Of a DNA stretch of 64,000 nt, positions 32,874-54,591 are shown piece by piece. Below the pieces are notes generated by a model. It did not search any database, had not been told where the DNA came from, and worked only from the letters and a program-made list of their open reading frames with translations. The stretch's first letter is position 1; each line of letters starts with the position of its first letter. A program made the translations under genes and the position numbers. This stretch comes from Thermodesulfobacteriota bacterium (lineage in GTDB: Bacteria > Desulfobacterota_D > UBA1144 > Nemesobacterales > UBA2774), in the NCBI GenBank assembly GCA_965216785.1, contig OZ244197.1, positions 1-64,000 of the forward strand, in the 5' to 3' direction.

Positions 32874-33027
32874 GGTTCTAATATATAGCAAGCTCTGTTA
32901 ATCTATAATTTAATCTATTACATGTCTGAACACATACTAGGTGTTAAACTATTTACATTAATTAAATCGAGAACAGCATTGTATCCAAACTTTACATAAT
33001 TGGCTTAATAGAGTTAGGTAAGCACAA

Positions 33028-33834
33028 ATGTTTGATTTAGAAAAAGATAGATCACTAAGAGACCTTATCGAAACACAAAACAATAATGTTATAGACAAAT
33101 GGGAAGGATATTTCAGTGTTTATGACGATGAAACAGAATACTTAAGAAACAAACCAATAAATCTATTGGAAATTGGTGTTCAAAATGGCGGCTCATTAGA
33201 GGTATGGTGTAAATATTTCAGCAAAGCTAAGAATGTAATTGGAGTTGATATTGATCCCAACTGCAGTGGTATCTCATTTGATGATAAGAGAATAAAGGTA
33301 ATTATCGGCGACAGCAATTCCACATCACTAAAAGATGAATTACAAAATGTATGTCCTTATTTCGACGTAATTATAGATGATGGATCTCACAAATCCTACG
33401 ATATAATTAAGACGTTCACAGATCTTATACCGTTATTGAATTCTAATGGGGTATATATAATCGAAGACCTTCATTGTAGTTACTGGCAAAATTTCCAAGG
33501 CGGAGTTGAAAGACCGGACTCATCATTAAGCTTTTTTAAAAAAATAGTGGACGTAATTAACATTGAACACTGGCGGAATGGAAAAGATCTTAACTGGTTA
33601 TTTAGAGATGTGGGTCTTGTAAATATCAACAGTGAATCCATCGAAGCGTTAAGCAGAATAAAAAGCATCTCATTCTATAATTCAATGTGCATTGTTAAAA
33701 TGTCAGACGGTAAATATCAAACAATCGGTAAGAGATATGTAAGGGGAAGCGTCGGGACAATAGAAAAGAACGAATCTGATGGCACAGATATATCAGACGT
33801 AGATGAGCAGCAAGACTTAAACCCGTATAGTTAA
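33028..33834 (+). CDS. class I SAM-dependent (sugar O-)methyltransferase
   Basis: DKW..YF.VY, LLEIGVQNGGSL..W, GVDI, FDVIIDDGSH, G.YIIEDL.CSYW. Confidence 0.85.
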   Translation: MFDLEKDRSLRDLIETQNNNVIDKWEGYFSVYDDETEYLRNKPINLLEIGVQNGGSLEVWCKYFSKAKNVIGVDIDPNCSGISFDDKRIKVIIGDSNSTSLKDELQNVCPYFDVIIDDGSHKSYDIIKTFTDLIPLLNSNGVYIIEDLHCSYWQNFQGGVERPDSSLSFFKKIVDVINIEHWRNGKDLNWLFRDVGLVNINSESIEALSRIKSISFYNSMCIVKMSDGKYQTIGKRYVRGSVGTIEKNESDGTDISDVDEQQDLNPYS

Positions 33835-33849
33835 TGTAAAAGCATTATA

Positions 33850-36800
33850 TCACTTTCTGTGATTTATTAAATCTGCATACCTGGAATTAAACAGTCTTAA
33901 TGCTTTTTGATATAACTCAAAATCTAAAGAATTCAACTCTGTAATCAAATTCATTAAATTAAGATCCAGATTTTGTACTTTCTCTATGTAGTTCTTCCCT
34001 ACATTCCGGACTAGGTATGGAATATCGAGCCCGAAATTAGCATTGAGTAAATGTAGCGATTTCTTATACTGCTCTGTTATACCGATAAAACCTATGTCTT
34101 CAGGTATAAGACCATTAATAAATTCAAACTGTCTATTTTGAAATTTTTCCGTATGCACAAACTCCAACAAAGTCCCCTTATATCCGTGATGATTTACAAA
34201 ATGATTATAGTCAGACAATACTCGTTGGACAGGCTCTCTGAAAAATACGATACAACGTTCTGGATTAACTATGCCCCGGTACCTTATAATCGGATAATGA
34301 CCTATTATAAAAATTTTGCCCTCTGAGACAAGCCTATTCCTCAGAGATTTCAGGTCATTGCTTTCGTACACAAATTGTCTTATGCAGGGCGATGTCAGGG
34401 ATTCATCTATTCCATAGTCATACGCTATATATTCCTCACCATAAGTTTCTTCTATGCCATTCCTTAAGCTTGTACCCGCGGTTTTTGGAATATGTACGAA
34501 AAAGATTGGATCTTTAAAGCTAATATCGAAAGTGTCTTCTCTTCTAGCGCCGGGTTGAAATGTTTTTAAAGTATTAACGGACGTTGCAGAATTGTCATTT
34601 ATATATTCAGAAACTGCAGATTCCAGCCATGGTTTATATACTTTTGTAGATTGCGCAATCTCAAACGATGAAGAATATAGAGAAAGATTGGGATTATAAA
34701 ATGGATCATTATCCAATGTATATCCCCATTTTGTTCTCATATAAGATATTTCTTTCTTAAATCTGTTTAGTTTCTCTGGCTCAGAATCATATCCTCGAGA
34801 CTTGCTTTCTAAATGGTAAAGCTCTGCATGAGGTGTCCATATAATCTTGTAACCGGCCTGCCGAATACGGATACAGAAATCCACATCATTAAATGCCACT
34901 GCCAGGTCTTTTTCATTTAGCCCTCCGATTTCATCAAACACTTCTCGTCTTACTGCCATACAGGCAGCAGTTACACAAGACAAACTATGAGTTAACATGA
35001 GCCTACAGAAATACCCAGGAAACTCTCGATCAGCATAGCGGTGTACATGGCTAGCAACACCTTCGATACCCAGAATAACTCCACCATGCTGTAGTGTATT
35101 ATCGGAATAGTAGAGTTTGGCACCGACAGCGCCGACCTCGGCCCGAATTACATGGCTTACCATTTCGTCAAGCCAGCCTGGATTTATGATCTTGGTATCA
35201 TTATTCAACAAAACACATACTTCTCCAGACGAACCGGCAATTCCATTGTTGACAAGTCGTGAAAAATTAAATGGACCTGGATCTTTTACTACCCTAACAT
35301 TATTGTTTGATTGGACATTCTCAAGAAACTCGAGAGCATCCTGCTCACTACTCCCGTTATCAACAATAATTATTTCAATTGGCTCATAATCAGTGCGGTT
35401 AAAAAGCCCGTCAATACAGGTCATGAGAAGCCCACTCTGATCTTTTGTAGGAATAATTACTGAAACGTGAGGACACTTTAAAGGTAATTCACGTTTTATG
35501 GATTGAAAACTTGAGTGGCCTTCGGAATTGGCTCTAGCACTCTGATTTGTCCGTTCGAAGTGTTCGTTTACTAACCTCTGTGCGGCATCGCGCGCTAGTT
35601 CTGATGAGCTGTTTGAAAAAGACGCATCAATTTCTCTCCAGTGATAAAGAATAAAAGGAATATGATATATCTCTGATTCCCTTATTATTTCCACTACCCT
35701 GAGAGCAAAATCCCAGTCCTGAGACCCCTCGAATCCTTCGCGGAATCCTCTCACTTTTTGGGCTAGGTCAGCTCTGTAAGCACCGAGATGACTGATCAAA
35801 TTCTGACCCAGGAAAAGATCATAGTCCCAGTCGGGTTTAAAATAAGGGGCAGAGCGCCTCCCTTCTGAATCTATCCGGTCTTCATCAGAATAAATTATTG
35901 CCGCATTAGGATTTTCATTTATTACATCTGTGACCAGATATAGTGCGTGCTCGGATAGTAAATCATCATGATCCAGAAGAACAATCCAGTCTCCGCTTGC
36001 CATTTCAAGAGCTGTGTTTGTACAGGCTGAAATGCCCCCGTTTTCCTGACGAAATGAGGGTCTTATTCGGGAGTCTTTCTCCTCATATTCCCTTAGAATA
36101 TTGTGTACTTCCATCGAGGTCGAGGAATCATCAACTATGCAAAGCTCCCAGTTTTCATATAGTTGTCCTAAAACAGAATCGATGGCTTGTCTTAGATACT
36201 CGCCTTTCGTATTATATACAGGCATAAGTACCGAGAACTTTGGATTGCTATCAAAAGACTTGATATGATTCCGTATCAGAGAGCGGTCTTTATCACTTAA
36301 GGTGTCATTTCCCTGTATCCATTTATAGTAATCGATATTATTTGAAGCATTCTTTTTGTTGAAGTATCTGGAGGTTCGTGGAATCTCATGCGGGAGCCGC
36401 TTTCCCCTCAGGTACCAGTATAACCTACCGGAGAATGTCTCTATTCCTTCATTTTTAAGCAGCTCTATCCCCAGCCCGGCATCTTCATACAAAAACGCTA
36501 CCTTGTTTTTGAGTAAAACGAACAGGTCAGCAATGCCCCTTAAAGGATGTGTAATCCGCCATGACCAAGTTACAAGTATGTTGGCTATTGTTTCCTGCTG
36601 TTCTCGAACCTGTTTTGATAATTCTAGATTCTTCCTATCTGATTCACTCAGCTTTGACTTTAGGCTATAAATTTTACTCTTATAGATTTCTTTTTCTTGT
36701 TGCAATATCTTGAAGCGTTCATCTGAGGACAAAAGCACCTCTTGCTCACCACTTAGTTCTTCAAGACGCTTTAGCAAGAGGTTTGTCTTTGCGAATGGAT

Positions 36801-37920
36801 TCGATGTCGAAGAAGAACAAGATGGGCGATGCTGCCTACAGATATCCGCTATGTAGTCCCAGTGCTTTTCAAGCTTGCCCTGTGCTGCTTTCGTAAATGA
36901 ACAAATACGAGGTGTTCCTGATTGTACCGCCCGCGCAAACTTTGCAATCGCACCTGAGTCCTGCGGCGAGGCATAGTAAACATTGTCTGATGCTTGCAAC
37001 AGTGTGTATTTGCCACCTTTGGCTTCGGCAGGCCGGAGCACAGGCAAGCCATATGCTAGCGCCGAAATCGAGAGATGCAGGCTCTGGGCAATGACACCGG
37101 CGCTATGCGCTACGAGCCCGGCAATTTCAATGGGTGATGGCCACTCCGGCAGATGCTTCGCCTTTGGGAGGACTTTTAGAAAAGGCGAGACATCGTCACC
37201 GAGAGCGGGTCCGATCGGCAGCACGAGGACATCGAGATCGGAAGGCACATCAGGATGGTAGAGTAGAGCTTCTATAATTGCTACCATTGATGGGTACGCC
37301 TGAACAACGATGTATCTATCTCTTAATTTAAGACGAGAGAGAAGGTTCTTCACCCGACTGCGTAAATCCTTTCGGGGAAAGTGGCGCGAGATTGCAAAGA
37401 CGGTATCAGGAACAACACTGCACGTGCCGTCGAAACCGGCCCTGCGGAGCGCATCGACACTAGAACGATCTCGTAGAGCAACATAGTCGCTATTTTCGAG
37501 TACTAAAGGTAGGAGTTTTTCAGACCATTCTGGAAATGCATCCGACGCACTTGGCGCATTCCAAATTACCGGCAGACCTGAACCAATACCTGCAAGAGCC
37601 GGTGCGAGCCAGTATCCTGTTGGATGAGGAATCTCCGGGATCGGCGGTGCGTAGCCAGGTGCCACAGCTTTATCAAAGCGGATGAGGTGGCCCCCTCCGA
37701 TCAGGATACAATCAAGCCTCTGTTGACCAGGCGGCTCCGTGTTCAAACTGGTGAGACTCTTAACGTCATAACACCATGACGGAGACCTCTTTTCATGATA
37801 TGAATATCGAACAAGTTCAAAATCTTCGAGCCGTTCATTAAGCTCCCGCTCCGCGATCATTGGAAACAGCAGATCGCCGTAATTCTCGACATCAAAAGTT
37901 CCGAAGATACCAATGCGCAT
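33850..37920 (-). CDS. multidomain glycan enzyme: polysaccharide pyruvyltransferase + coiled coil + GT2 + GT2 + sulfotransferase
   Basis: NYGD.L/GGG/LRD..S/PD..F/SLH (aa ~1-360); heptad helix and SWRITHPLR (~378-461); SVLMPVYN..LDHDD (from ~559); SVIIPTKD..LLNND (from ~816); FVHIPKTAGTS and FREPV.R.LS (from ~1137). Confidence 0.85.
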   Translation of the reverse strand: MRIGIFGTFDVENYGDLLFPMIAERELNERLEDFELVRYSYHEKRSPSWCYDVKSLTSLNTEPPGQQRLDCILIGGGHLIRFDKAVAPGYAPPIPEIPHPTGYWLAPALAGIGSGLPVIWNAPSASDAFPEWSEKLLPLVLENSDYVALRDRSSVDALRRAGFDGTCSVVPDTVFAISRHFPRKDLRSRVKNLLSRLKLRDRYIVVQAYPSMVAIIEALLYHPDVPSDLDVLVLPIGPALGDDVSPFLKVLPKAKHLPEWPSPIEIAGLVAHSAGVIAQSLHLSISALAYGLPVLRPAEAKGGKYTLLQASDNVYYASPQDSGAIAKFARAVQSGTPRICSFTKAAQGKLEKHWDYIADICRQHRPSCSSSTSNPFAKTNLLLKRLEELSGEQEVLLSSDERFKILQQEKEIYKSKIYSLKSKLSESDRKNLELSKQVREQQETIANILVTWSWRITHPLRGIADLFVLLKNKVAFLYEDAGLGIELLKNEGIETFSGRLYWYLRGKRLPHEIPRTSRYFNKKNASNNIDYYKWIQGNDTLSDKDRSLIRNHIKSFDSNPKFSVLMPVYNTKGEYLRQAIDSVLGQLYENWELCIVDDSSTSMEVHNILREYEEKDSRIRPSFRQENGGISACTNTALEMASGDWIVLLDHDDLLSEHALYLVTDVINENPNAAIIYSDEDRIDSEGRRSAPYFKPDWDYDLFLGQNLISHLGAYRADLAQKVRGFREGFEGSQDWDFALRVVEIIRESEIYHIPFILYHWREIDASFSNSSSELARDAAQRLVNEHFERTNQSARANSEGHSSFQSIKRELPLKCPHVSVIIPTKDQSGLLMTCIDGLFNRTDYEPIEIIIVDNGSSEQDALEFLENVQSNNNVRVVKDPGPFNFSRLVNNGIAGSSGEVCVLLNNDTKIINPGWLDEMVSHVIRAEVGAVGAKLYYSDNTLQHGGVILGIEGVASHVHRYADREFPGYFCRLMLTHSLSCVTAACMAVRREVFDEIGGLNEKDLAVAFNDVDFCIRIRQAGYKIIWTPHAELYHLESKSRGYDSEPEKLNRFKKEISYMRTKWGYTLDNDPFYNPNLSLYSSSFEIAQSTKVYKPWLESAVSEYINDNSATSVNTLKTFQPGARREDTFDISFKDPIFFVHIPKTAGTSLRNGIEETYGEEYIAYDYGIDESLTSPCIRQFVYESNDLKSLRNRLVSEGKIFIIGHYPIIRYRGIVNPERCIVFFREPVQRVLSDYNHFVNHHGYKGTLLEFVHTEKFQNRQFEFINGLIPEDIGFIGITEQYKKSLHLLNANFGLDIPYLVRNVGKNYIEKVQNLDLNLMNLITELNSLDFELYQKALRLFNSRYADLINHRK

Positions 37921-38103
37921 ATGTGTCTCACAAAGTTACTTCAGAGGAATTTGTAAAAATTTGAGTTTTAAATTCATGCTTCTCTTATTTTTATCCTTTT
38001 GCACTAAATTAGTCTGTCTGTTTTAAAAAAGAAATACAATACTCATTATTTCCTGAACATTACGAACAAAACGGTTCGGAAACTATTTCCCCCTCATAAT
38101 GAG

Positions 38104-38186
38104 TACAGAATGCAGTTTAAACTCAGCCTCGGTGTTGTACCCATAATCTGTTATTAGTGACCTGCAGAAAAATCAAGTATAATGAA
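38104..38186 (+). pseudogene. decayed duplicate of the 3' end of the GT2 gene (32790-32873)
   Basis: hand alignment about 62/84 nt identical; internal TAG and a 1-nt deletion. Confidence 0.75.
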
Positions 38187-38221
38187 TTCGCATTCTCACC
38201 CCTAACAGGCACATATTATCA

Positions 38222-38995
38222 ATGATTAAAAGAGTAATACCCTATAAAGACCTCTTCATAGTCTACGTATGGAGAGAATATAATATAAGATACCGCCATT
38301 CCATCATGGGATTCCTGTGGGCTATTATTCAGCCCTTGAGCATGATGCTTCTCTTTACATTCGTTTTCACATACATATTGAAGATACAGACATCGGACTA
38401 CCCGATAGCAATATTCTTTTACGCGGGACTCTTGCCTTGGACCTTTTTTTCTTCTTCAGTGAATTATTCTGTTTCAAGCCTTTCTGACAACTTTGATATA
38501 ATTACAAAGATTTATTTCCCCAGGGAAATACTTCCACTCTCTGGAATATCCGTGGCTTTTGTCGATTACCTCATAGCCTCGCTCATATTTATACCTATGC
38601 TTGTAATATATAAAATCCAAATCACATTAAATGTGCTCTGGATCATCCCTCTTTTCATTCTCCTATTTATATTTACAATATCGATGTCTCTTTTGCTATC
38701 GAGCTTAAATGTGTATTACAGAGACGTAAAACTTGCAATTGGGTTTTTGATACAACTTTTATTCTTTGCTTCTCCGATTCTTTATTCAATTGATGACCTG
38801 AGCATCAAGCTTAAATTGATACTATTGCTCAACCCTCTTACATTTATTATTGAAAATATGAGAAGATGCTTGATTGAGGGGCGAGGAGTGGTGTTGTGGC
38901 AGTTTTTAATAGCTGCATTATTGGTATTAGCATTCTTTTATCTAGCACATAAATTTTTCATAAAAACAGAAAGGGATTTTGCAGATGTCATCTAA
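38222..38995 (+). CDS. wzm: ABC-2 polysaccharide exporter permease
   Basis: RYR.S.MG..WA..QPL, GLLPW.FF, KIYFPRE, .YRD, F.SPI.Y, NPL..II...R. Confidence 0.92.
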   Translation: MIKRVIPYKDLFIVYVWREYNIRYRHSIMGFLWAIIQPLSMMLLFTFVFTYILKIQTSDYPIAIFFYAGLLPWTFFSSSVNYSVSSLSDNFDIITKIYFPREILPLSGISVAFVDYLIASLIFIPMLVIYKIQITLNVLWIIPLFILLFIFTISMSLLLSSLNVYYRDVKLAIGFLIQLLFFASPILYSIDDLSIKLKLILLLNPLTFIIENMRRCLIEGRGVVLWQFLIAALLVLAFFYLAHKFFIKTERDFADVI

Positions 38996-39716
38996 CACAG
39001 TCATAGAGTTTCAAGACGTGTGGAAGAAATACTCCACACAGGACATTTTCCATAAATCCATAAGGGATGAGATCGCCAATATATTTTCCAAGACCGACAG
39101 AGAAAACCTCGGGCACGGAGAGTTTTGGGCTTTAAAGGGGATTAGTATGTCGATAAAAAGGGGTGAGTGCATAGGATTATACGGACCCAATGGTTCTGGA
39201 AAATCTACGATTTTAAAACTGATAGCATCAGTCACTTTTCCAAACAGAGGAGAGGTTAAAGTGGGAGGCAGAATAGCCCCGTTAATATCTGTAGGTGCTG
39301 GCTTTCATCCTGATCTTACAGGAAGAGAGAATATTTACACCAATGGAACTATAATTGGAATGACTATCAAAGAAGTAAGAGATAAAATAGAGGATATCGT
39401 TCAATTCTCGGATATCGATGAGAAGTTTATTGATATGCCAGTTAAGAAATATTCAACCGGTATGAATGCGCGGCTTGGCTTTTCTATTGCAATTCACAGT
39501 AGTGCGGAGATAATATTAATCGACGAAATACTCGCTGTTGGAGATGAAGCTTTTCAGAAAAAATGTCTAACTAAGATCGAAGAGCTAATTGAGAAAAAAA
39601 GAACCATAATTATCGTGTCTCATAATAAAGACAGGCTCCGAGAATTGACTCACAGAATATTATTTATTCAAACAGGTGAAATAATTGATTCAGAATACCA
39701 AGAAAAGGTACTATAA
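38985..39716 (+). CDS. wzt: ABC polysaccharide exporter ATPase, without C-terminal carbohydrate-binding domain
   Basis: FWAL..IS, G.NGSGKST, GFHPDLTGREN, KKYSTGM.ARL, IDE.LAVGD..FQ.KC, VSH. Confidence 0.92.
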   Translation: MSSNTVIEFQDVWKKYSTQDIFHKSIRDEIANIFSKTDRENLGHGEFWALKGISMSIKRGECIGLYGPNGSGKSTILKLIASVTFPNRGEVKVGGRIAPLISVGAGFHPDLTGRENIYTNGTIIGMTIKEVRDKIEDIVQFSDIDEKFIDMPVKKYSTGMNARLGFSIAIHSSAEIILIDEILAVGDEAFQKKCLTKIEELIEKKRTIIIVSHNKDRLRELTHRILFIQTGEIIDSEYQEKVL

Positions 39717-39745
39717 TTTATGTCATCACATTATTCAAAGAGGAT

Positions 39746-41173
39746 ATGATGGGATATAACCCAAAAGTAGCAATCGTAATAGTTACATGGAACAAAAAGA
39801 AGTATGTAGTAGATCTACTGAACTCACTAAAAGACATTAACTATAAAAACTATGAAATATTTGTAGTAGATAATGCGTCTACAGACGATACTTGCAAAGT
39901 AATAAAAGAAAAGTATCCATATGTGGATTTAATAGAGAATGAGGAAAATCTTGGGGGAACCGGCGGATTTAACACTGGGATGAAGTACGTTCTTGAGAAG
40001 GGCGGCTATAAGTATATATGGCTCTTGGATAACGATGCAGTGGTAGAGAAAGATACACTAATCGAGCTTGTTAAAGTTATGGAAAACGACAACGGCGTAG
40101 GTATTACAGGTTCTATAATAATGGAACCTGACAAGGAAATGATAGTTGAGCTCGGAGCATATGTATCATGGTCTATTGGAACATGGAAGCCAAATATGCG
40201 GAATAACAGAATAAGCAAAATGGAGCATCTCGAGAATGCAGAGGTCGATTATGTAGCTGCGTGCTCGTCTCTAGTACGTACTGAAGTTCTTGAAGAAATC
40301 GGAGTAATGGATGAAAGATATTTTATACATTGGGATGATATTGACCTCTCTCTGAGAGCCAAGGCTGCCGGTTATAAGGTAATGGCATCACCAAAGTCTA
40401 AAGCTTATCACGGGATCGAGGACAAACCCATTAACCCTCTAATGTCATATTATGACATTAGAAACGGGCTACTTACAATCACAAAACATCAAGACGGTTT
40501 AAGCAGGTTTATATATATAATGAACATGCTGAGGGGAACGAGTAAGGGTATCGTATACTCTATGTTAAGCGGACTTCACAATACTTCTAAGCTCCTGATT
40601 CGTGGGCCTATAGATTTCATAAGGGGCAAATTTTATAAAACTAATATTCAGGTGATCAAAAGTGAATATGATGACCCGAAAGTTAGAAAATATAAAATAG
40701 AAGATTTACCGCTCAATAATAATTCTAAAGTGATAATTCAACCTAATGCAAGCTACGCAGTCATTAAAAATATGGTACAAGAACTAAGAGAACTATATCC
40801 CGACTGCCATATTAGCTTACTGATACAGCAAGACAGACAAGAGCTTTTTAAAGGCCTTAAGATTGACCGTTTTATTACTTTTGAAGGATACAGACAATCA
40901 ACTATACAAACTATTTCGGTACTCAACAAGATACTACAATCGAATTATGATATTTGCATCAGCCCAAGCCGTTCACTTCTTCCGTTCTCACATGCTGTAA
41001 AAAAATACTTCTTGTATGATCATCAAAATGACTATTTTGTAAAGAGTAATGAAAATTTATTTGCATCCTGGAAGCTCTTCGTATCATTCTTTGCGGGGGA
41101 GTTACTAGCATTTATTCTTTTACCCTTCGTATATCTTAAGAGCTTTCAATATGAGACAGTAAAGAGCTCTTAA
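39746..41173 (+). CDS. glycosyltransferase family 2 with extra C-terminal domain
   Basis: VVDNASTD, NLGGTGGFN.G, WLLDNDA, MDERYF..WDD.D...R. Confidence 0.87.
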   Translation: MMGYNPKVAIVIVTWNKKKYVVDLLNSLKDINYKNYEIFVVDNASTDDTCKVIKEKYPYVDLIENEENLGGTGGFNTGMKYVLEKGGYKYIWLLDNDAVVEKDTLIELVKVMENDNGVGITGSIIMEPDKEMIVELGAYVSWSIGTWKPNMRNNRISKMEHLENAEVDYVAACSSLVRTEVLEEIGVMDERYFIHWDDIDLSLRAKAAGYKVMASPKSKAYHGIEDKPINPLMSYYDIRNGLLTITKHQDGLSRFIYIMNMLRGTSKGIVYSMLSGLHNTSKLLIRGPIDFIRGKFYKTNIQVIKSEYDDPKVRKYKIEDLPLNNNSKVIIQPNASYAVIKNMVQELRELYPDCHISLLIQQDRQELFKGLKIDRFITFEGYRQSTIQTISVLNKILQSNYDICISPSRSLLPFSHAVKKYFLYDHQNDYFVKSNENLFASWKLFVSFFAGELLAFILLPFVYLKSFQYETVKSS

Positions 41174-41227: not shown

Positions 41228-42139
41228 ATGTACTCTAAATTACCAAACTTTTTCATAGTAGGTGCTGCAAAATCAGGCACAACATCAATTTTTGCATATC
41301 TGTCTCAACACCCAGAAATTTTTTTTAGCCCTCTTAAAGAGCCTAAGTTCTTTTCTGTCTCAGCAAACACATTTCCTCATAAAGGACCTGGTGATAGTGA
41401 AGTTGACAATACTATAATTAAAGATAAGCACGATTACCTTAATCTGTTTAAAGGTGCTAAAGATGAAAAAGTCATTGGGGAAGCTTCAGCTGATTATTTA
41501 TATTTCTATAAGATTGCAGCACCTTTGATATACGAATGCAACCCTAATGCAAAGATACTTATAATTCTGAGAAACCCGGCTGAAAGAGCCTTTTCCGCTT
41601 ATCGACACATGCTGAAAGACAAAAGAGAAAGCCTCTCATTTGAAAACGCCATTGAAGCTGAAGAAAGTAGGATGGACAATAATTATGAGTTCATATGGTT
41701 TTACAAAGACGTTGGTCATTACTATCACCAAGTCCTGGAATATTTAAAGACTTTCAATAAAGGTTCAGTAAAAATTTGCCTTTTCGAGGATTTAACAAAG
41801 AATTCAAGCGAAGTTACAAGGGAAATTTTAAAGTTCCTTGAAGTTGATGAGTGCTTCTCACCGGATATAAGCGAAAAACATAATGTATCGGAGATAAAAC
41901 TTAACGAGTCGTTAGACCAATTCCTAAGCAGGTATAATCATCCTGTTAAAAATTTGCTTCGCCCCTTATTCCTCAACACTTTAGGTAAAGATAATACAGA
42001 AAGATTAGTGAATTATTTCAAAGGTAAGAATGTTCTTAGAATGAGATCAAAAACGAGGAAATCCCTGATTAATTTATACAGGGATGATATTATAAAACTC
42101 CAAGATTTAATAAAGCGTGATCTATCGTCTTGGCTTTAA
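41228..42139 (+). CDS. PAPS-dependent sulfotransferase
   Basis: PNFFIVGAAKSGTTS (5'-PSB), QHPEI, KEP.FF, GEAS..Y, LRNP.ERAFS.Y (3'-PB). Confidence 0.92.
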   Translation: MYSKLPNFFIVGAAKSGTTSIFAYLSQHPEIFFSPLKEPKFFSVSANTFPHKGPGDSEVDNTIIKDKHDYLNLFKGAKDEKVIGEASADYLYFYKIAAPLIYECNPNAKILIILRNPAERAFSAYRHMLKDKRESLSFENAIEAEESRMDNNYEFIWFYKDVGHYYHQVLEYLKTFNKGSVKICLFEDLTKNSSEVTREILKFLEVDECFSPDISEKHNVSEIKLNESLDQFLSRYNHPVKNLLRPLFLNTLGKDNTERLVNYFKGKNVLRMRSKTRKSLINLYRDDIIKLQDLIKRDLSSWL

Positions 42140-46778: not shown

Positions 46779-48548
46779 CTACTGCTCAGGATATAGACTA
46801 GGCAGCCTTTCCGATCTATAAACTGTCCATCCGTTCATATTCTCGGGATTATCATCCTCTATAGATAGGTCAAAAACCTTCTCAGCCGGTGTTGTATGAG
46901 TTACTTCGATTATGCGTGGTGTGGTTATTGCTGTTGCAATATTATCTGTAGGAACACCTTCAGCATCCTTAGCAACACCTCCGTGAGTGATCAGCACATT
47001 ACCAGTTACAGGCATATAGTCCGCATCGCCAATGAAAGGAGCGTAAAGTATTTCATCCGCAAATTCCCCGAATTCCCAAACCTGCTCTATCTCCATGTTG
47101 TCCAGATCAAGTGAGTATTCCACAGCTCTACTGAAGTTTTCTGACGCGGGGACAGTCTCATCAAAAGGACTTGCTTTCAAATTACCGTTATCGTATATCA
47201 ATATATTTCCGTTAGGCAATACCATAGGTGCATGCTGGTGAAATTGCCAAAGGAAATTCAGTCCGATAGGGTCAAAAAGTAAGTCACCAAAAATATCTGT
47301 ATCCCAGTTAGCATGGGTACCTATTATCCAAGACAGGTCTCCAGTTGCTCTGTCGAATTTGATTACAGCGTCTTGGTGTCTCAAGGAGACAATAATAGAA
47401 TCATCGGATGGATCATATATAACGGCATTTCCATGGCTCCAATCCTTGGTTCCTTGCTCGAATTCAGGAAAGGTCGCATTCCAAAAACCTAAAAGGGAAT
47501 TATATCCTATTCTGAAAGGGTCCAGCATTTCCAGAATAGACCATTCATTTACAATAGTCCCATCTGTTGAGAGCTCTAAAACAGTATCCCCCGCAACAAA
47601 AGCACTCTCAGTCGGGGCTAACGGATCGGTATCACTAGCAGGAAAATTGTCTATTAAAATTACTTCAACGCCTAGTGTAAGTAAATTGCCATTTGGCATC
47701 TCGAACACTTCATGGTGAAACACATCAGTATTTACGACAATACTGTCAGGACCTGCCGTACTACTTAACAGTGTATGCCATTGTCTTACAATATCTCCCA
47801 ACATATTAATTTCAGTAATAGTACTATTACTTTCAATAAATAGAATGTTTCCATTTGATATTCGGGTAACATCACCGTAAGCAACATCATCAAACCTTTT
47901 GTACCAAACGACATCACCTTGTGCATTTACAGCTACTAAAAAAGAGCCTAATTCCGTGTTAGCCACACGTGGTCTCAGAGGAAATATCGTAACACCAGGC
48001 TCCATCATCTCAGGATTACTTGTTACCTCGATCGGGGGGAAACCCTCCGGCAATGGATCGGTGTCTACTAAGATTGGCTGATCAAACTGAGTTTGGTTTC
48101 CGAATGCGTCGCTTACAGTGATCTGAAGCATAAAACTGCCGTCCGGAGTAAAACCTAAAATCGGAAGTGAGTGCTCAATAGCCCGATCATCAAACTCAAT
48201 TGTCAATGACTCGAATGCGCCTCTATTTAGAGTTGTAGTAGTTGTTGTAGCTTCGGTGATTGTAACGCTCACAGATGTAGGCTCATCTGTTCCAAGCTCG
48301 AGCAGTCCCGCAAGCGGGGTGTCCGGGTTGGGCGCCAAAGTGAATATAGGCTGGGACGTGAAAACAGGAGCGGTGTTATCATTTTCTATATTAGAAGAGT
48401 CACCGGATGCGGCATCTCCTTCAAACCCATTGAAATTATCGTCACAGCCTGCAGCCAACAGGATTAATGCAAGAACTGGCACTAATACAATGTAACGATT
48501 AGATAACCTCAGAATATTAAAAAAGTGTAATACTCCGTATTGACCCAT
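46779..48548 (-). CDS. arylsulfate sulfotransferase (ASST) family lipoprotein
   Basis: lipobox LAAGC; N-terminal P..PL.G Ig-like part; HHE, DW.H.NA, SLRHQ and QHAP motifs, ...SRAVEY, YR..R. Confidence 0.88.
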   Translation of the reverse strand: MGQYGVLHFFNILRLSNRYIVLVPVLALILLAAGCDDNFNGFEGDAASGDSSNIENDNTAPVFTSQPIFTLAPNPDTPLAGLLELGTDEPTSVSVTITEATTTTTTLNRGAFESLTIEFDDRAIEHSLPILGFTPDGSFMLQITVSDAFGNQTQFDQPILVDTDPLPEGFPPIEVTSNPEMMEPGVTIFPLRPRVANTELGSFLVAVNAQGDVVWYKRFDDVAYGDVTRISNGNILFIESNSTITEINMLGDIVRQWHTLLSSTAGPDSIVVNTDVFHHEVFEMPNGNLLTLGVEVILIDNFPASDTDPLAPTESAFVAGDTVLELSTDGTIVNEWSILEMLDPFRIGYNSLLGFWNATFPEFEQGTKDWSHGNAVIYDPSDDSIIVSLRHQDAVIKFDRATGDLSWIIGTHANWDTDIFGDLLFDPIGLNFLWQFHQHAPMVLPNGNILIYDNGNLKASPFDETVPASENFSRAVEYSLDLDNMEIEQVWEFGEFADEILYAPFIGDADYMPVTGNVLITHGGVAKDAEGVPTDNIATAITTPRIIEVTHTTPAEKVFDLSIEDDNPENMNGWTVYRSERLPSLYPEQ

Positions 48549-51558: not shown

Positions 51559-53037
51559 CTATTCCTTTTCATATAAATATAAATTAAGCTTGCTAAAACT
51601 CCTCACAGGTTTTAAATTATAGCCCTTTAGCACATCATTTTTAACTGATTCTTCATCGATCTTTGCGAATAGACCTATAACAACCCAAAATCTATCCGGA
51701 AGTTCACTTAATGCCTCAGAAGTAAGAGGTATGAAGTGTAAATCCTCCCTACCCTGGTAATATGCCGCCGTACTTACATCGAAAGACGGATAGACGAATA
51801 CACTGTCGTTTTCCCGGGCTTTCTTTTCCACGTAGGTGACGGTCTCTCTCCATTGATGTTTTTGCGCATCGACATAGTAGATTCTGAGAGGCCATATGGA
51901 TAGTACTAGTATAACTGCAGGGATAACGACTGTGAGTCTCTTATTGTGCAAGTTGCTGATACCTTTTGCTATGAGTAGAAAAAACGCAAGAGACGAGCCA
52001 ATGATGTATCGTGTGTGAAGTATAGGAGTTGAAATATTAGATAATACAAAGGGAATAAGAATCGGCACTAGTAGCCATAGAAGAAGTAAATACATGCTGT
52101 ATACATTTGAGAGGAAGGAATTTGGAGCAGGAGCGCCTTTAATATCTAGAATATCTCGTATATGCTTCATATTGTTTATAGCTTTGTAATTGATAAACGA
52201 AAAAGCCGAAAGTACAAGAAACAAAATGAAGAGAACGTAGTCACGGCCGGAGAAATGGTAGAAGTACCTCGCAATATCAACCACTGTGGGCTCTGAAAGC
52301 CAGAAACCGCGCTGTATAGCGAGGGTGTTTTTGTACCATATTAAGAGTCCGGGGATAAATAGCAGGCCTATTATAACTTGAAGCGCTATCCACTTGGATA
52401 GTCTCAAACTGAAAACATCTCTGTTAACGAAATAGCGGGTAAAACAAAATATATTCTGCACAACCAGTATAAACACACCGTAAAAATGAGAGTACATGAG
52501 CAGCACGCTCGTTATGACATAGCCTATAATATAGAGCGGATTCGAGCCGCTTAGGGTCTTTAAAAAGAAATAAAAAGAACATAGGGTGAGGAAAGCCAAG
52601 AGACTGTATGATCTGGCTTCCTGGGAGTACTCGATATGGAAAACCGAAACCGCTAAAATTAGTGAAGCTATTAATGCCGTAGTTTTGTTAAAAACCAGTC
52701 TCCCAACTGCGTATAACACAAGAATCGAGCCTGTTCCTACGATTGCCGAGGGAAGTCTAAGCGAGAACTCCGAATGCCCGAAGAGGGAAACCCAGAAATG
52801 CATCAGCATATAGTAAAGGGGAGGATTGTTGTCGTTCTGACTAATCATCCAAGCGATGATTTCGCTAATCTTTAGCTCCGCGACCTGAGAAGTGACGACT
52901 TCATCAACCCATATGCTCTCCCCACTAAGATCATAGATCCTTAAGACGGCGCCCAGGAGTAGAATCAGTAAAAGGAGATAATTTTCTTCTATATATTTTA
53001 GTGAATGGTGGTTTTGCAAGTCGGTTTTCTCTATCAA
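51559..53037 (-). CDS. GT-C fold PMT/ArnT-like membrane glycosyltransferase
   Basis: TM1 then LR.Y.L..ESIW.DE, .PPLYY, LRLPS, SQEARSY; multiple TM segments. Confidence 0.83.
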   Translation of the reverse strand: MIEKTDLQNHHSLKYIEENYLLLLILLLGAVLRIYDLSGESIWVDEVVTSQVAELKISEIIAWMISQNDNNPPLYYMLMHFWVSLFGHSEFSLRLPSAIVGTGSILVLYAVGRLVFNKTTALIASLILAVSVFHIEYSQEARSYSLLAFLTLCSFYFFLKTLSGSNPLYIIGYVITSVLLMYSHFYGVFILVVQNIFCFTRYFVNRDVFSLRLSKWIALQVIIGLLFIPGLLIWYKNTLAIQRGFWLSEPTVVDIARYFYHFSGRDYVLFILFLVLSAFSFINYKAINNMKHIRDILDIKGAPAPNSFLSNVYSMYLLLLWLLVPILIPFVLSNISTPILHTRYIIGSSLAFFLLIAKGISNLHNKRLTVVIPAVILVLSIWPLRIYYVDAQKHQWRETVTYVEKKARENDSVFVYPSFDVSTAAYYQGREDLHFIPLTSEALSELPDRFWVVIGLFAKIDEESVKNDVLKGYNLKPVRSFSKLNLYLYEKE

Positions 53038-53115: not shown

Positions 53116-54591
53116 TCATCTTCTGTAATGATAAAGTTTTAACTTGTGAAATTCCTTAAAGGACTCCACATTATAGTCTTCAAGGAGCTCCTGTGTAAGA
53201 GATTCTTTTCCCGCAGATCCGTGCCAGCTCATTACTACCCAGAAGTTATAGTTATCTTCATCGAGCTCTGAGAGTGACTCGCCGCTAAACTCTATCATCT
53301 CTAAATCATCTCTCTTCAAATGATAAAGTCCGGTTCTTAATTCATAGTCGGGAGAAACCATTATAAGCTCTCCCGCATCCGCAGCTGATTCAAGGTAGGC
53401 AACGGTTTCCCGCCACTGGTGCTTATGGATTTTAAGGTAATATTCCCTAATATTTAAAAAGGAAAAGATTAGAACGATTCCCGTTAGAACTGCTAAAATT
53501 CTTTTATTCCCAAAACTCTCAATTCCCTTGGCAACTATAATGAAAAATGCAGCTGCCCCGCAAACTGCATAACGCACCTGGTACATCGGGGTAATCATTA
53601 CTGATATCAAAAACGGGATTATTATAGGTATAGATATCCATAGGACTAGTAAATATATTTTTTGTATGTAGGGAAGCTCCGTTTCACCCGATTTATCGTA
53701 TTGGGATCTGATATAGCCGTTTAAGCTTTTTAGTCGGAATACGGATATTAGATTAAAAACCGCGAATACTGAGAAGATGGAGAACAAGACGAATAATGGC
53801 CAAGACCCGGAGTATGCTAACACCGCTCCCGGTATCTCTTTAAGACTCGGAGCACTAAGCCAGAGTCCTTCCTTAGTGGCTCCTGCCTGCGCTATTAAAT
53901 ACAGGTGCGGCAAGTATAAAACAAACAAAATAAGCTGGAGCAATACCCATCGCCCTAAGCTTAATGACTTATATTCTCTGCTTAAAAGGAAGTTAGTGAA
54001 GATAAAAATATTTTGAGCTATCAGTACAAATACGGCGTAGTAATGTGAAGATAGCAGGAGTAATGAGCTGATAATATATAAGGCACAAATCCAAAAGCTC
54101 TGTTGTTTAAGGAGCTTTGTAAAAAAATAGAAAGAAAGGATAGATAGTAACGCAAATAAGCTGTAGCTCCTGGCTTCCTGAGAAAGCTCTATTAACATTA
54201 CTGAAGTTGCTAGAATGAGAGCTGAAAGAAGAGCGGTGTTTTTATTAAATAGGAGTTTTGCCATTTTATAAACGGCTATGATAGAGAGCACCCCGAATAT
54301 AACCGAAGGAAATCGCACAGAAAAAGCGGAATCGCCAAAGAGCTTTATCCAATAATGCATAATCGAATAGTACAAAGGAGGGTGATTTTCGTTGTCCCTT
54401 AAGATTTCCTTTATAATTTCGACCGGACCATGTTTTGATATCTCTATCGTATAGGCTTCGTCAAGCCAGATACTCTCGCTACCGAGATCATAGATCCTTA
54501 AGATTGCGCCTAGGAGAATGATTAGTAAGAGAAGATAGTTCTCTTCTATGAATTTTAGTGAATGGTAATTTGGCAAGGCAGCGATCCTCAC
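53116..54591 (-). CDS. GT-C fold PMT/ArnT-like membrane glycosyltransferase (tandem paralog)
   Basis: ESIWLDE, HPPLYY, RFPS, SQEARSY, KHQWRETV shared with the neighbour. Confidence 0.83.
   Translation of the reverse strand: MRIAALPNYHSLKFIEENYLLLLIILLGAILRIYDLGSESIWLDEAYTIEISKHGPVEIIKEILRDNENHPPLYYSIMHYWIKLFGDSAFSVRFPSVIFGVLSIIAVYKMAKLLFNKNTALLSALILATSVMLIELSQEARSYSLFALLSILSFYFFTKLLKQQSFWICALYIISSLLLLSSHYYAVFVLIAQNIFIFTNFLLSREYKSLSLGRWVLLQLILFVLYLPHLYLIAQAGATKEGLWLSAPSLKEIPGAVLAYSGSWPLFVLFSIFSVFAVFNLISVFRLKSLNGYIRSQYDKSGETELPYIQKIYLLVLWISIPIIIPFLISVMITPMYQVRYAVCGAAAFFIIVAKGIESFGNKRILAVLTGIVLIFSFLNIREYYLKIHKHQWRETVAYLESAADAGELIMVSPDYELRTGLYHLKRDDLEMIEFSGESLSELDEDNYNFWVVMSWHGSAGKESLTQELLEDYNVESFKEFHKLKLYHYRR

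What the first reader, a model, noticed from the sequence alone, without database searches (positions are those of the whole stretch)
33850..37920. 1356-aa single-chain glycan enzyme: pyruvyltransferase - coiled coil - GT2 - GT2 - sulfotransferase
Seen: five consecutive modules in one ORF (aa ~1-360, ~378-461, from ~559, from ~816, from ~1137), next to wzm/wzt. Known: in ABC-transporter-dependent glycans, WbdD (E. coli O9a) and WbbB (Raoultella/Klebsiella O12) use a coiled coil as a length ruler between polymerase and capping domain. Geobacillus WsaE fuses a capping methyltransferase to two rhamnosyltransferase domains. Characterised caps are methyl, phospho-methyl or Kdo. Inference: here a dual-GT2 polymerase may be terminated by pyruvylation at a ruler distance of ~70 aa and also sulfated by the same polypeptide. 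I do not recognise that cap chemistry or domain combination as described.
Basis: partly seen in the sequence, partly recalled or inferred. Interest (0 to 1): 0.75.

Follow-up and report, generated by a model that had tools for sequence, protein, structure and literature searches.

The report
Five-part sugar-chain enzyme with swappable ends
One intact 1,356-residue bacterial protein joins five modules predicted to build a surface sugar chain, sulfate it, and cap it with pyruvate at the tip of a rigid spacer that likely sets chain length; close relatives carry the same core with different end modules, which offers a natural test set for a pyruvate length ruler that is predicted in print but unproven.

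Summary
The five-module ORF is real and not a chimera. It has a pyruvyltransferase-family domain, a coil of about 10 heptads, two GT2 domains and a sulfotransferase whose fold is closest to heparan-sulfate O-sulfotransferases; full-length homologues and contigs from other studies bridge the junctions. Its layout is that of Klebsiella O7 ORF6, WbbB and WsaE: cap enzyme, ruler, dual polymerase.

The cap chemistry is not new. Terminal pyruvylation is proven for WbbZ (without a ruler), and pyruvate rulers are already named as unvalidated candidates. My searches did not find the single-chain pyruvate-plus-sulfate form in print. I also found a swap series on one conserved core: pyruvyl- or methyltransferase in front, and one of two sulfotransferases, or none, behind.

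Against the textbook model: the adjacent Wzt lacks the cap-reading domain, no LpxC was found (so probably not LPS O antigen), no ATP sulfurylase was found, and the fold search shows only GT-B. The scan's index held this protein only on this same DNA. New variant of a known kind.

The parts
33850..37920 (-). Whole ORF, 1356 aa; no transmembrane segment (highest 19-residue hydropathy 1.46), so likely cytoplasmic
36832..37920 (-). Residues 1-363: polysaccharide pyruvyltransferase-family domain, GT-B fold; motifs N13-x-G15-D16, R150-xxx-S154, H282; 51.5% GC
   Evidence: Pfam; motifs; AF2; fold; GC
36565..36798 (-). Residues 375-452: long helix with heptad repeat, about 10 heptads (strongest 403-451); predicted coiled-coil ruler
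36496..36567 (-). Residues 452-475: conserved S-W-R-x-T-x-P-L-R-type motif and amphipathic helix ending the coil; likely membrane anchor (inferred by analogy with WbdD)
   Evidence: motif found in 105 of 197 family sequences; moment of windows at 445-457 ranks 50-93 of 1338
35491..36255 (-). Residues 556-810: first GT2 domain with D650-x-D-D
34621..35490 (-). Residues 811-1100: second GT2 domain with N906-x-D908
33853..34530 (-). Residues 1131-1356: PAPS-type sulfotransferase (H-I-P-K-T-A-G-T-S at 1143, R-x-P...S at 1228), closest in fold to heparan sulfate O-sulfotransferases; 35% GC
33843..34678 (-). Exchangeable cassette: replaced by 833 unrelated letters in contigs of runs X5 and X6 (one study, P2); the matching protein P0002 carries a different sulfotransferase (27% identity)
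38222..38995 (+). wzm (ABC-2 membrane subunit), divergent from the ORF
38979..39716 (+). wzt, 245 aa, ATPase only, no Wzt_C carbohydrate-binding module
39746..41173 (+). GT2, 475 aa; best NCBIfam hit is the rhamnosyltransferase subfamily (E 4.6e-27, below cut-off); candidate adapter enzyme (inferred)
41228..42139 (+). Stand-alone sulfotransferase (Sulfotransfer_1/3), 303 aa
33028..33834 (+). Stand-alone Methyltransf_24, 268 aa, convergent with the ORF; not detectably similar to the methyltransferase fused in P0105
31968..32873 (+). GT2, 301 aa; this gene and the methyltransferase flank the orthologue in the same-genus genome G002

Best explanation
This is one intact five-module protein that is likely a cytoplasmic polymerase-terminator for an ABC-exported surface glycan: the two GT2 domains would extend a lipid-linked, probably rhamnose-rich chain near the membrane, the C-terminal sulfotransferase would sulfate residues of the growing chain, and the N-terminal pyruvyltransferase, held about 10 nm away on the coil, would stop growth by adding a pyruvate ketal once the chain reaches it. 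Shown: the ORF, the domain folds and motifs, the heptad repeat, and natural exchange of both end modules. Inferred: every catalytic step, the donor sugar, the ruler action and membrane anchoring. Export in this strain is probably not gated by the cap, because the neighbouring Wzt has no cap reader. The glycan probably does not end on lipid A, because no LpxC was found.
For: (1) The layout equals K. pneumoniae O7 ORF6 (cap - coil - GT2 - GT2). Its proven dTDP-rhamnose modules have DXDD at 975 and NXD at 1230, 255 apart (PMC11231755); here DXDD is at 650 and NXD at 906, 256 apart. (2) Slot swap: P0105 and L015 have Methyltransf_24 in place of the pyruvyltransferase on a core 83% identical over residues 481-920. 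L023 has a kinase-like N-terminus on a 39% identical core (read by eye, no Pfam hit). (3) All three motifs that PMC10629545 gives for pyruvyltransferases are present: N13 in 56 of 57 aligned homologues, G15, D16, R150 and H282 in 57 of 57, S/T154 in 52 of 57. (4) Of 154 loci holding this domain, 56 show a wzt in the fetched DNA; 49 of these 56 are long or cap-reader-bearing (15 fused to the pyruvyltransferase) and 7 are short (Pfam checks on 4 long and 4 short ones). Many are Pseudomonas and not independent. (5) In L014, whose neighbouring methyltransferase begins with the same sequence as that of same-genus G002, the orthologue faces a wzm and a 421-aa Wzt with Wzt_C at E 1e-26. (6) The spacer between domain end and anchor motif varies (median 93, 5-95% range 59-318 residues in 105 sequences), as expected of a ruler. 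(7) rmlABCD lie next to the P0005-type gene in L017, and rml-like genes lie in this genome at about 2.32 Mb. (8) APS kinase is present.
Confidence: 0.5

Rival explanations
1. WbbZ- or Ogawa-like decoration: the pyruvate is a terminal epitope on some chains, length is set by coupling of synthesis to export through the reader-less Wzt, and the coil is an inherited spacer with little effect.
For: The adjacent Wzt lacks Wzt_C. In K. pneumoniae O1 the exporter lacks a CBM, exports capped and uncapped chains, and WbbZ hardly changes length (PMC10629545; PMC11231755).
Against: WbbZ is not described with a coil, whereas this protein has an intact coil and anchor motif. The methyl-cap swap and the Wzt_C-bearing exporter in L014 point to a ruler system.
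Confidence: 0.2
2. The sulfotransferase is a passenger: a neighbouring gene fused by loss of a stop or by a frameshift, acting on another glycan or poorly supplied with PAPS; the working unit is the four-module enzyme.
For: P0003, P0004, L015 and the G002 copy end without it. P0004 and the stand-alone P0125 (74% identical to this domain) share a contig length of 38,670 and read like one gene split by a frame change (same contig inferred, not shown). 191 stand-alone homologues were found against 4 long proteins. No ATP sulfurylase was found.
Against: Sulfotransferase tails occur in at least three versions: this one (P0001, P0005, P0105), a 27%-identical one (P0002), and one on the differently built 1877-aa P0007. 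PAPS-binding motifs are invariant in 85 homologues. APS kinase is present in 32 of 33 family genomes.
Confidence: 0.15
3. The N-terminal GT-B domain caps the chain with something other than a plain pyruvate ketal, for example a sugar or a group later oxidised by a partner oxygenase.
For: The fold search does not single out pyruvyltransferases. Similarity to CsaB is weak (TIGR03609 E 1.6e-5, far below cut-off). The oxygenase partner occurs in 115 of 154 loci.
Confidence: 0.1
4. The gene is not a partner of the adjacent wzm/wzt; it works in trans with the Wzt_C-bearing exporter at C1:3.09 Mb, so export is cap-gated after all.
For: The gene is divergent from wzm. Close homologues lie without a wzm/wzt hit in the fetched DNA in L015, L016 and L017. 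The exporter beside it differs between this genome and L014 (Wzm 34%, Wzt 39% identical).
Against: The 3.09-Mb exporter has its own methyltransferase and glycosyltransferase genes next to it, and it is no closer to the L014 Wzt (40%, ATPase part only) than the adjacent one is.
Confidence: 0.04
5. Assembly chimera or artefactual fusion.
For: GC falls from 51.5% in the first domain to 35% in the last.
Against: Independent full-length homologues and contigs of other studies bridge the junctions. Run X1, possibly the source sample, covers 33000-40000 in one contig with no differences.
Confidence: 0.01

Closest known systems
K. pneumoniae O7 ORF6 (methyltransferase-kinase - coil - GT2 - GT2; PMC11231755, passages and section 10 read)
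   Same: Cap enzyme at the far end of a coil and two C-terminal GT2 modules with DXDD then NXD at nearly the same spacing (255 against 256).
   Different: The cap is predicted to be pyruvate, not methylphosphate; there is an extra C-terminal sulfotransferase; the adjacent Wzt has no CBM.
WbbB of K. pneumoniae O12 (described in PMC11231755, passages)
   Same: Polymerisation, ruler and termination in one chain.
   Different: WbbB caps with beta-Kdo and pairs with a CBM-bearing Wzt.
WsaE of Geobacillus stearothermophilus (PMC2943079, passages)
   Same: An N-terminal cap enzyme plus two rhamnosyltransferase domains making a non-LPS (S-layer) glycan; the homologues P0105 and L015 have this methyl-cap layout.
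   Different: WsaE adds a methyl cap and is described with three active domains, none a sulfotransferase.
WbbZ of K. pneumoniae O1 (PMC10629545, sections 9 and 10 and passages read)
   Same: Pyruvyltransferase motifs; terminal pyruvate that stops a dual-GT polymerase in vitro; exporter without CBM.
   Different: WbbZ is a separate protein not described with a coil and does not set length in vivo; no sequence match to it was detected.
Predicted pyruvate terminators of Pseudomonas protegens and Burkholderia vietnamiensis G4 (one sentence in PMC10629545; its bioinformatic source, Mann et al. 2019, was not held and not seen)
   Same: Very likely the same family: Pseudomonas loci show wzm - wzt(CBM) - pyruvyltransferase-coil at 35-42% identity to this domain.
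   Different: There the cap enzyme is stand-alone or fused to Wzt and usually has a 2OG oxygenase in the locus; here it is fused to the polymerase and a sulfotransferase.
Heparan sulfate 2-O and 6-O sulfotransferases (PDB 3F5F, 5T03)
   Same: Closest solved folds for the C-terminal domain; both modify polysaccharide chains.
   Different: They are eukaryotic enzymes with 16-25% identity; the acceptor here is unknown.

Membership tests
Capped, ruler-controlled ABC-transporter glycan systems (WbdD/WbbB/ORF6 type) | Terminating enzyme at the distal end of a coiled coil | tested here: met
   Order of domains, helix 375-469 and heptad test; self-association of the coil itself remains untested
Capped, ruler-controlled ABC-transporter glycan systems (WbdD/WbbB/ORF6 type) | Polymerase modules at the proximal end of the coil | tested here: met
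   Two GT2 domains with DXDD and NXD
Capped, ruler-controlled ABC-transporter glycan systems (WbdD/WbbB/ORF6 type) | Membrane-associated amphipathic helix after the coil | tested here: inconclusive
   Conserved motif, moment in the top 4-7% of windows; membrane binding not testable
Capped, ruler-controlled ABC-transporter glycan systems (WbdD/WbbB/ORF6 type) | Cognate Wzt with a cap-binding module (Wzt_C) | tested here: not met
   Adjacent Wzt is 245 aa without Wzt_C; one Wzt_C elsewhere in the genome; met in the related locus L014
Capped, ruler-controlled ABC-transporter glycan systems (WbdD/WbbB/ORF6 type) | Chain length depends on coil length; cap found at the non-reducing end | not testable with these tools
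   Needs biochemistry
Polysaccharide pyruvyltransferases (PF04230; WbbZ, CsaB, WcfO, Pvg1p) | Pfam score above cut-off | tested here: met
   100.6 against 25.3 bits
Polysaccharide pyruvyltransferases (PF04230; WbbZ, CsaB, WcfO, Pvg1p) | Motifs NxGD, RxxxS/T and a late His | tested here: met
Polysaccharide pyruvyltransferases (PF04230; WbbZ, CsaB, WcfO, Pvg1p) | Structure closest to Pvg1p/WbbZ within the GT-B fold | tested here: inconclusive
PAPS-dependent carbohydrate sulfotransferases (PF03567) | 5'-phosphosulfate and 3'-phosphate binding motifs and sulfotransferase fold | tested here: met
   the domain itself scores just under the Pfam cut-off, its 74% homologue P0125 above it
LPS O-antigen pathways | Lipid A biosynthesis (LpxC) in the host | tested here: not met
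   0 of 33 family genomes, 0 of 22 among those at least 90% complete; divergent enzymes could be missed

The most novel reading that the evidence does not exclude
A single polypeptide polymerises, sulfates, measures and pyruvate-caps a surface glycan in a lineage with no detectable lipid A pathway. The ruler fixes chain length without any cap-reading checkpoint on the exporter, and strains retune surface charge and length by recombining whole end modules (pyruvyl or methyl cap; sulfotransferase A, B or none; short or long coil) onto one conserved polymerase core.
Probability: 0.3. Interest if true: 0.75.

Novelty: new variant of a known kind. Interest (0 to 1): 0.52.

Why it matters
Pyruvate as a ruler-controlled chain terminator was stated in 2023 to lack biochemical proof (PMC10629545). 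This soluble single-chain enzyme holds polymerase, ruler and cap together, so the question can be tested with one expressed protein. Its natural variants supply controls: methyl against pyruvyl cap on an 83%-identical core, spacers of different length, and three states of the sulfotransferase tail. It also offers a bacterial polysaccharide sulfotransferase physically tied to its likely acceptor-making enzyme; PMC11641403 notes that little is known of such enzymes. If length control works without a Wzt reader, the ruler and the export checkpoint can be uncoupled.

Tried and rejected
Chimera: rejected.

Sulfate as the cap: rejected as unlikely. The domain sits at the polymerase end, and its stand-alone homologues end in a roughly 100-residue extension that by eye is not a coil.

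Neighbouring methyltransferase as the displaced N-terminus of P0105: no BLAST similarity at E 1e-5.

Two-copy complex prediction of residues 1-470: no verdict (score 0.29, mark 0.42); not used either way.

Sequence searches of the N-terminal domain against the PDB found 0 hits, alone or as an 87-row profile. WbbZ (6X1L) is not among the rows listed in the three fold searches, which does not exclude it.

A tree of the core (residues 481-920, 9 rows, none dropped) supports only P0001 with P0002, so the order of swaps cannot be given.

The pyruvyltransferase domain was found in 1 of 33 family genomes (only this one) with a single-protein query; G002 is 82% complete and its contig breaks inside the gene.

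No RNA holder listed. Rfam found 0 matches in the window. No STT3 match. Run X4 laid only fragments and was not used.

The wide profile search of the family did not run because the machine was busy, so family size is open. The host lineage was not named by any search (one search gave no names; one search returned nothing relevant). PMC6030368 and PMC13721041 passages added nothing on this question.
Full report

It is not an assembly product. A search with residues 1-470 returned 119 long proteins among 7990 scored candidates. P0005 aligns end to end at 70%, and its cluster has three members from two sources. Contigs from two other studies bridge the junctions: a 12,610-bp piece over 34679-41076, and a 465-bp piece over the GT2-sulfotransferase joint with no differences. 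Run X1 spans the stretch exactly but may be the source sample. The GC gradient from 51.5% to 35% along the gene (genome 46%) therefore likely reflects mosaic ancestry.

The protein is one member of a swap series. Seven close proteins share the core at 78-99% identity over residues 481-920. In front, five carry the pyruvyltransferase and two (P0105, L015) a Methyltransf_24 domain. Behind, P0001, P0005 and P0105 carry this sulfotransferase, P0002 a different one (27% identity), and P0003, P0004 and L015 none. P0002 is 98-100% identical up to residue 925 and 74% over 926-1100, and at DNA level 836 letters (33843-34678) are replaced by 833 others in runs X5 and X6 of one study. P0004 and the stand-alone P0125 look like a frame-split copy (same contig inferred from equal contig length). 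The spacer differs too: 176 residues in P0105 against 63 in L015 from the same methyltransferase landmark, and 99 in P0001 against 91 in P0005. The tree does not resolve the order of these events.

The N-terminal module belongs to a wide family. Of 159 fetched loci (the best 79 of 195 confirmed metagenome matches and the best 80 of 297 genome matches), 154 hold the domain. In 56 a wzt lies in the fetched DNA: 15 fused to the domain, 34 long or with a CBM hit, and 7 short. In 98 none was seen, many on short contigs but some with full flanks. Pseudomonas loci read wzm - wzt(CBM) - pyruvyltransferase-coil, the classic terminator position; they are related and count as few events. In long proteins the domain precedes GT2, GT4, RgpF, WbsX or WsaF modules. 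In 115 of 154 loci a 2OG-Fe(II) oxygenase is fused or present in the locus; this genome has none.

Mechanism. The two GT2 domains have DXDD at 650 and NXD at 906, matching in type and spacing the two proven dTDP-rhamnose modules of K. pneumoniae O7 ORF6 (975 and 1230; PMC11231755 section 10). rml genes flank a homologue (L017) and occur in this genome. I infer a rhamnose-rich backbone; the donor is not shown. The N-terminal domain has the three motifs published for pyruvyltransferases (PMC10629545 section 9; conservation). Its fold is GT-B, but the searches do not single out pyruvyltransferases, so PEP use is inferred. About 70 coil residues span roughly 10 nm by standard helix geometry, which would allow a few tens of sugars (rough inference). 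The sulfotransferase sits beside the polymerase, not at the tip of the coil, so it would decorate the chain rather than cap it.

Results against the textbook reading. First, the neighbouring wzm/wzt is divergent and its Wzt is 245 aa with no Wzt_C. The genome's single Wzt_C lies in another glycan locus at 3.09 Mb. In L014 the orthologue, without sulfotransferase, faces a Wzt with Wzt_C, so the exporter beside this gene has also been exchanged. Second, LpxC was found in 0 of 33 family genomes, so the glycan is probably not LPS O antigen. Two initiating sugar transferases and three Wzy_C/ligase-family genes exist elsewhere, and no STT3 was found; the final carrier is open. Third, APS kinase is present (32 of 33 family genomes) but Sat was found in 0 of 33, and neither CysD nor an above-cut-off CysN in this 92%-complete genome, so the PAPS source is unexplained.

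Comparison with the literature. Terminal pyruvylation is proven for WbbZ, which shortens O1 polymer in vitro but does not set length in vivo and works with a CBM-less exporter; the same paper names B. vietnamiensis G4 and P. protegens as unvalidated candidates for pyruvate chain-length regulation (PMC10629545; passages, sections 9 and 10, and a supplement search whose alignment figure gave only labels). WbdD, WbbB and ORF6 are taken from PMC11231755 (passages and section 10; supplement unreadable), WsaE from PMC2943079 (passages), Pvg1p residues from PMC4872226 (passages), and bacterial sulfated glycans from PMC11641403 (passages). Eight full-text searches showed no paper describing a pyruvyltransferase-coil-GT2-GT2 protein or one with a sulfotransferase tail; most listed papers were judged from the listing only. 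Mann, Kimber and Whitfield 2019, the census of terminator chemistries, was not held and may already list this architecture; that is the main gap in the novelty claim.

Verdict. It works like a WbbB/ORF6/WsaE polymerase-terminator but fails one membership feature at this locus (cap-reading Wzt). The cap chemistry is known in one form and predicted in the ruler form. The single-chain pyruvate-plus-sulfate combination and the strain-level module exchange are what is new. New variant of a known kind; interest 0.52.

Noticed in passing
L154:11356-12054, L113:11435-12127 and many of L026-L172: The pyruvyltransferase-coil family has a 2OG-Fe(II) oxygenase fused (25) or in the same locus (90) in 115 of 154 loci, often in Acidobacteriota with no wzt in the fetched DNA; a two-step cap chemistry is possible.
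   Followed up: partly
L098:8192-9787 (Achromobacter arsenitoxydans), L024:6292-7938, L025:9977-11560, L037:9986-11581: Between a CBM-less wzt and an intact pyruvyltransferase-coil-GT4-RgpF gene lies a paralogue with coil but degenerate motifs (NxGD Asn lost, late His replaced by an acidic residue). It could be a catalytically dead cap reader standing in for Wzt_C.
   Followed up: partly
L048, L056, L058, L108, L109 and others (15 loci); P0030-P0054: Pseudomonas proteins of about 900 aa fuse Wzt ATPase, Wzt_C, pyruvyltransferase and coil: exporter and putative terminator in one chain.
   Followed up: partly
G000:C1:2319340-2319786 and 1305618-1306145; 33 family genomes: APS kinase (32 of 33) and one PAPS_reduct-family gene (32 of 33) are near universal, yet Sat was found in 0 of 33 and CysD not in G000; the family may use an unrecognised ATP sulfurylase.
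   Followed up: partly
33 family genomes: LpxC found in 0 of 33, suggesting a lineage without canonical lipid A.
   Followed up: partly
window 46779-48548 (-): Arylsulfotransferase (ASST family, E 7e-70), a PAPS-independent sulfate-transfer family by established knowledge, 9 kb from the glycan locus.
   Followed up: no
window 51559-53037 and 53119-54591 (-): Two tandem, similar membrane proteins; the first hits PMT_2 (protein mannosyltransferase-like, E 2.6e-13). Possible glycan-transfer enzymes for the exported chain.
   Followed up: no
L023:2137-4986: The same GT2-GT2 core (39%) with a kinase-like N-terminus by eye and no Pfam hit there: a possible phosphate-cap variant.
   Followed up: no
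L173:4531-9686, L174:4669-9686: Enterobacterial plasmids carry capsule-type export genes, a long methyltransferase gene (Methyltransf_24 in L173) and a GT2-GT2 gene 47% identical to this core.
   Followed up: partly
L022:9905-17494; P0007: Larger multi-module versions: 2530 aa (pyruvyltransferase, RgpF, coil, GT2, GT4) and 1877 aa (pyruvyltransferase, WbsX, GT4, GT2, sulfotransferase).
   Followed up: no
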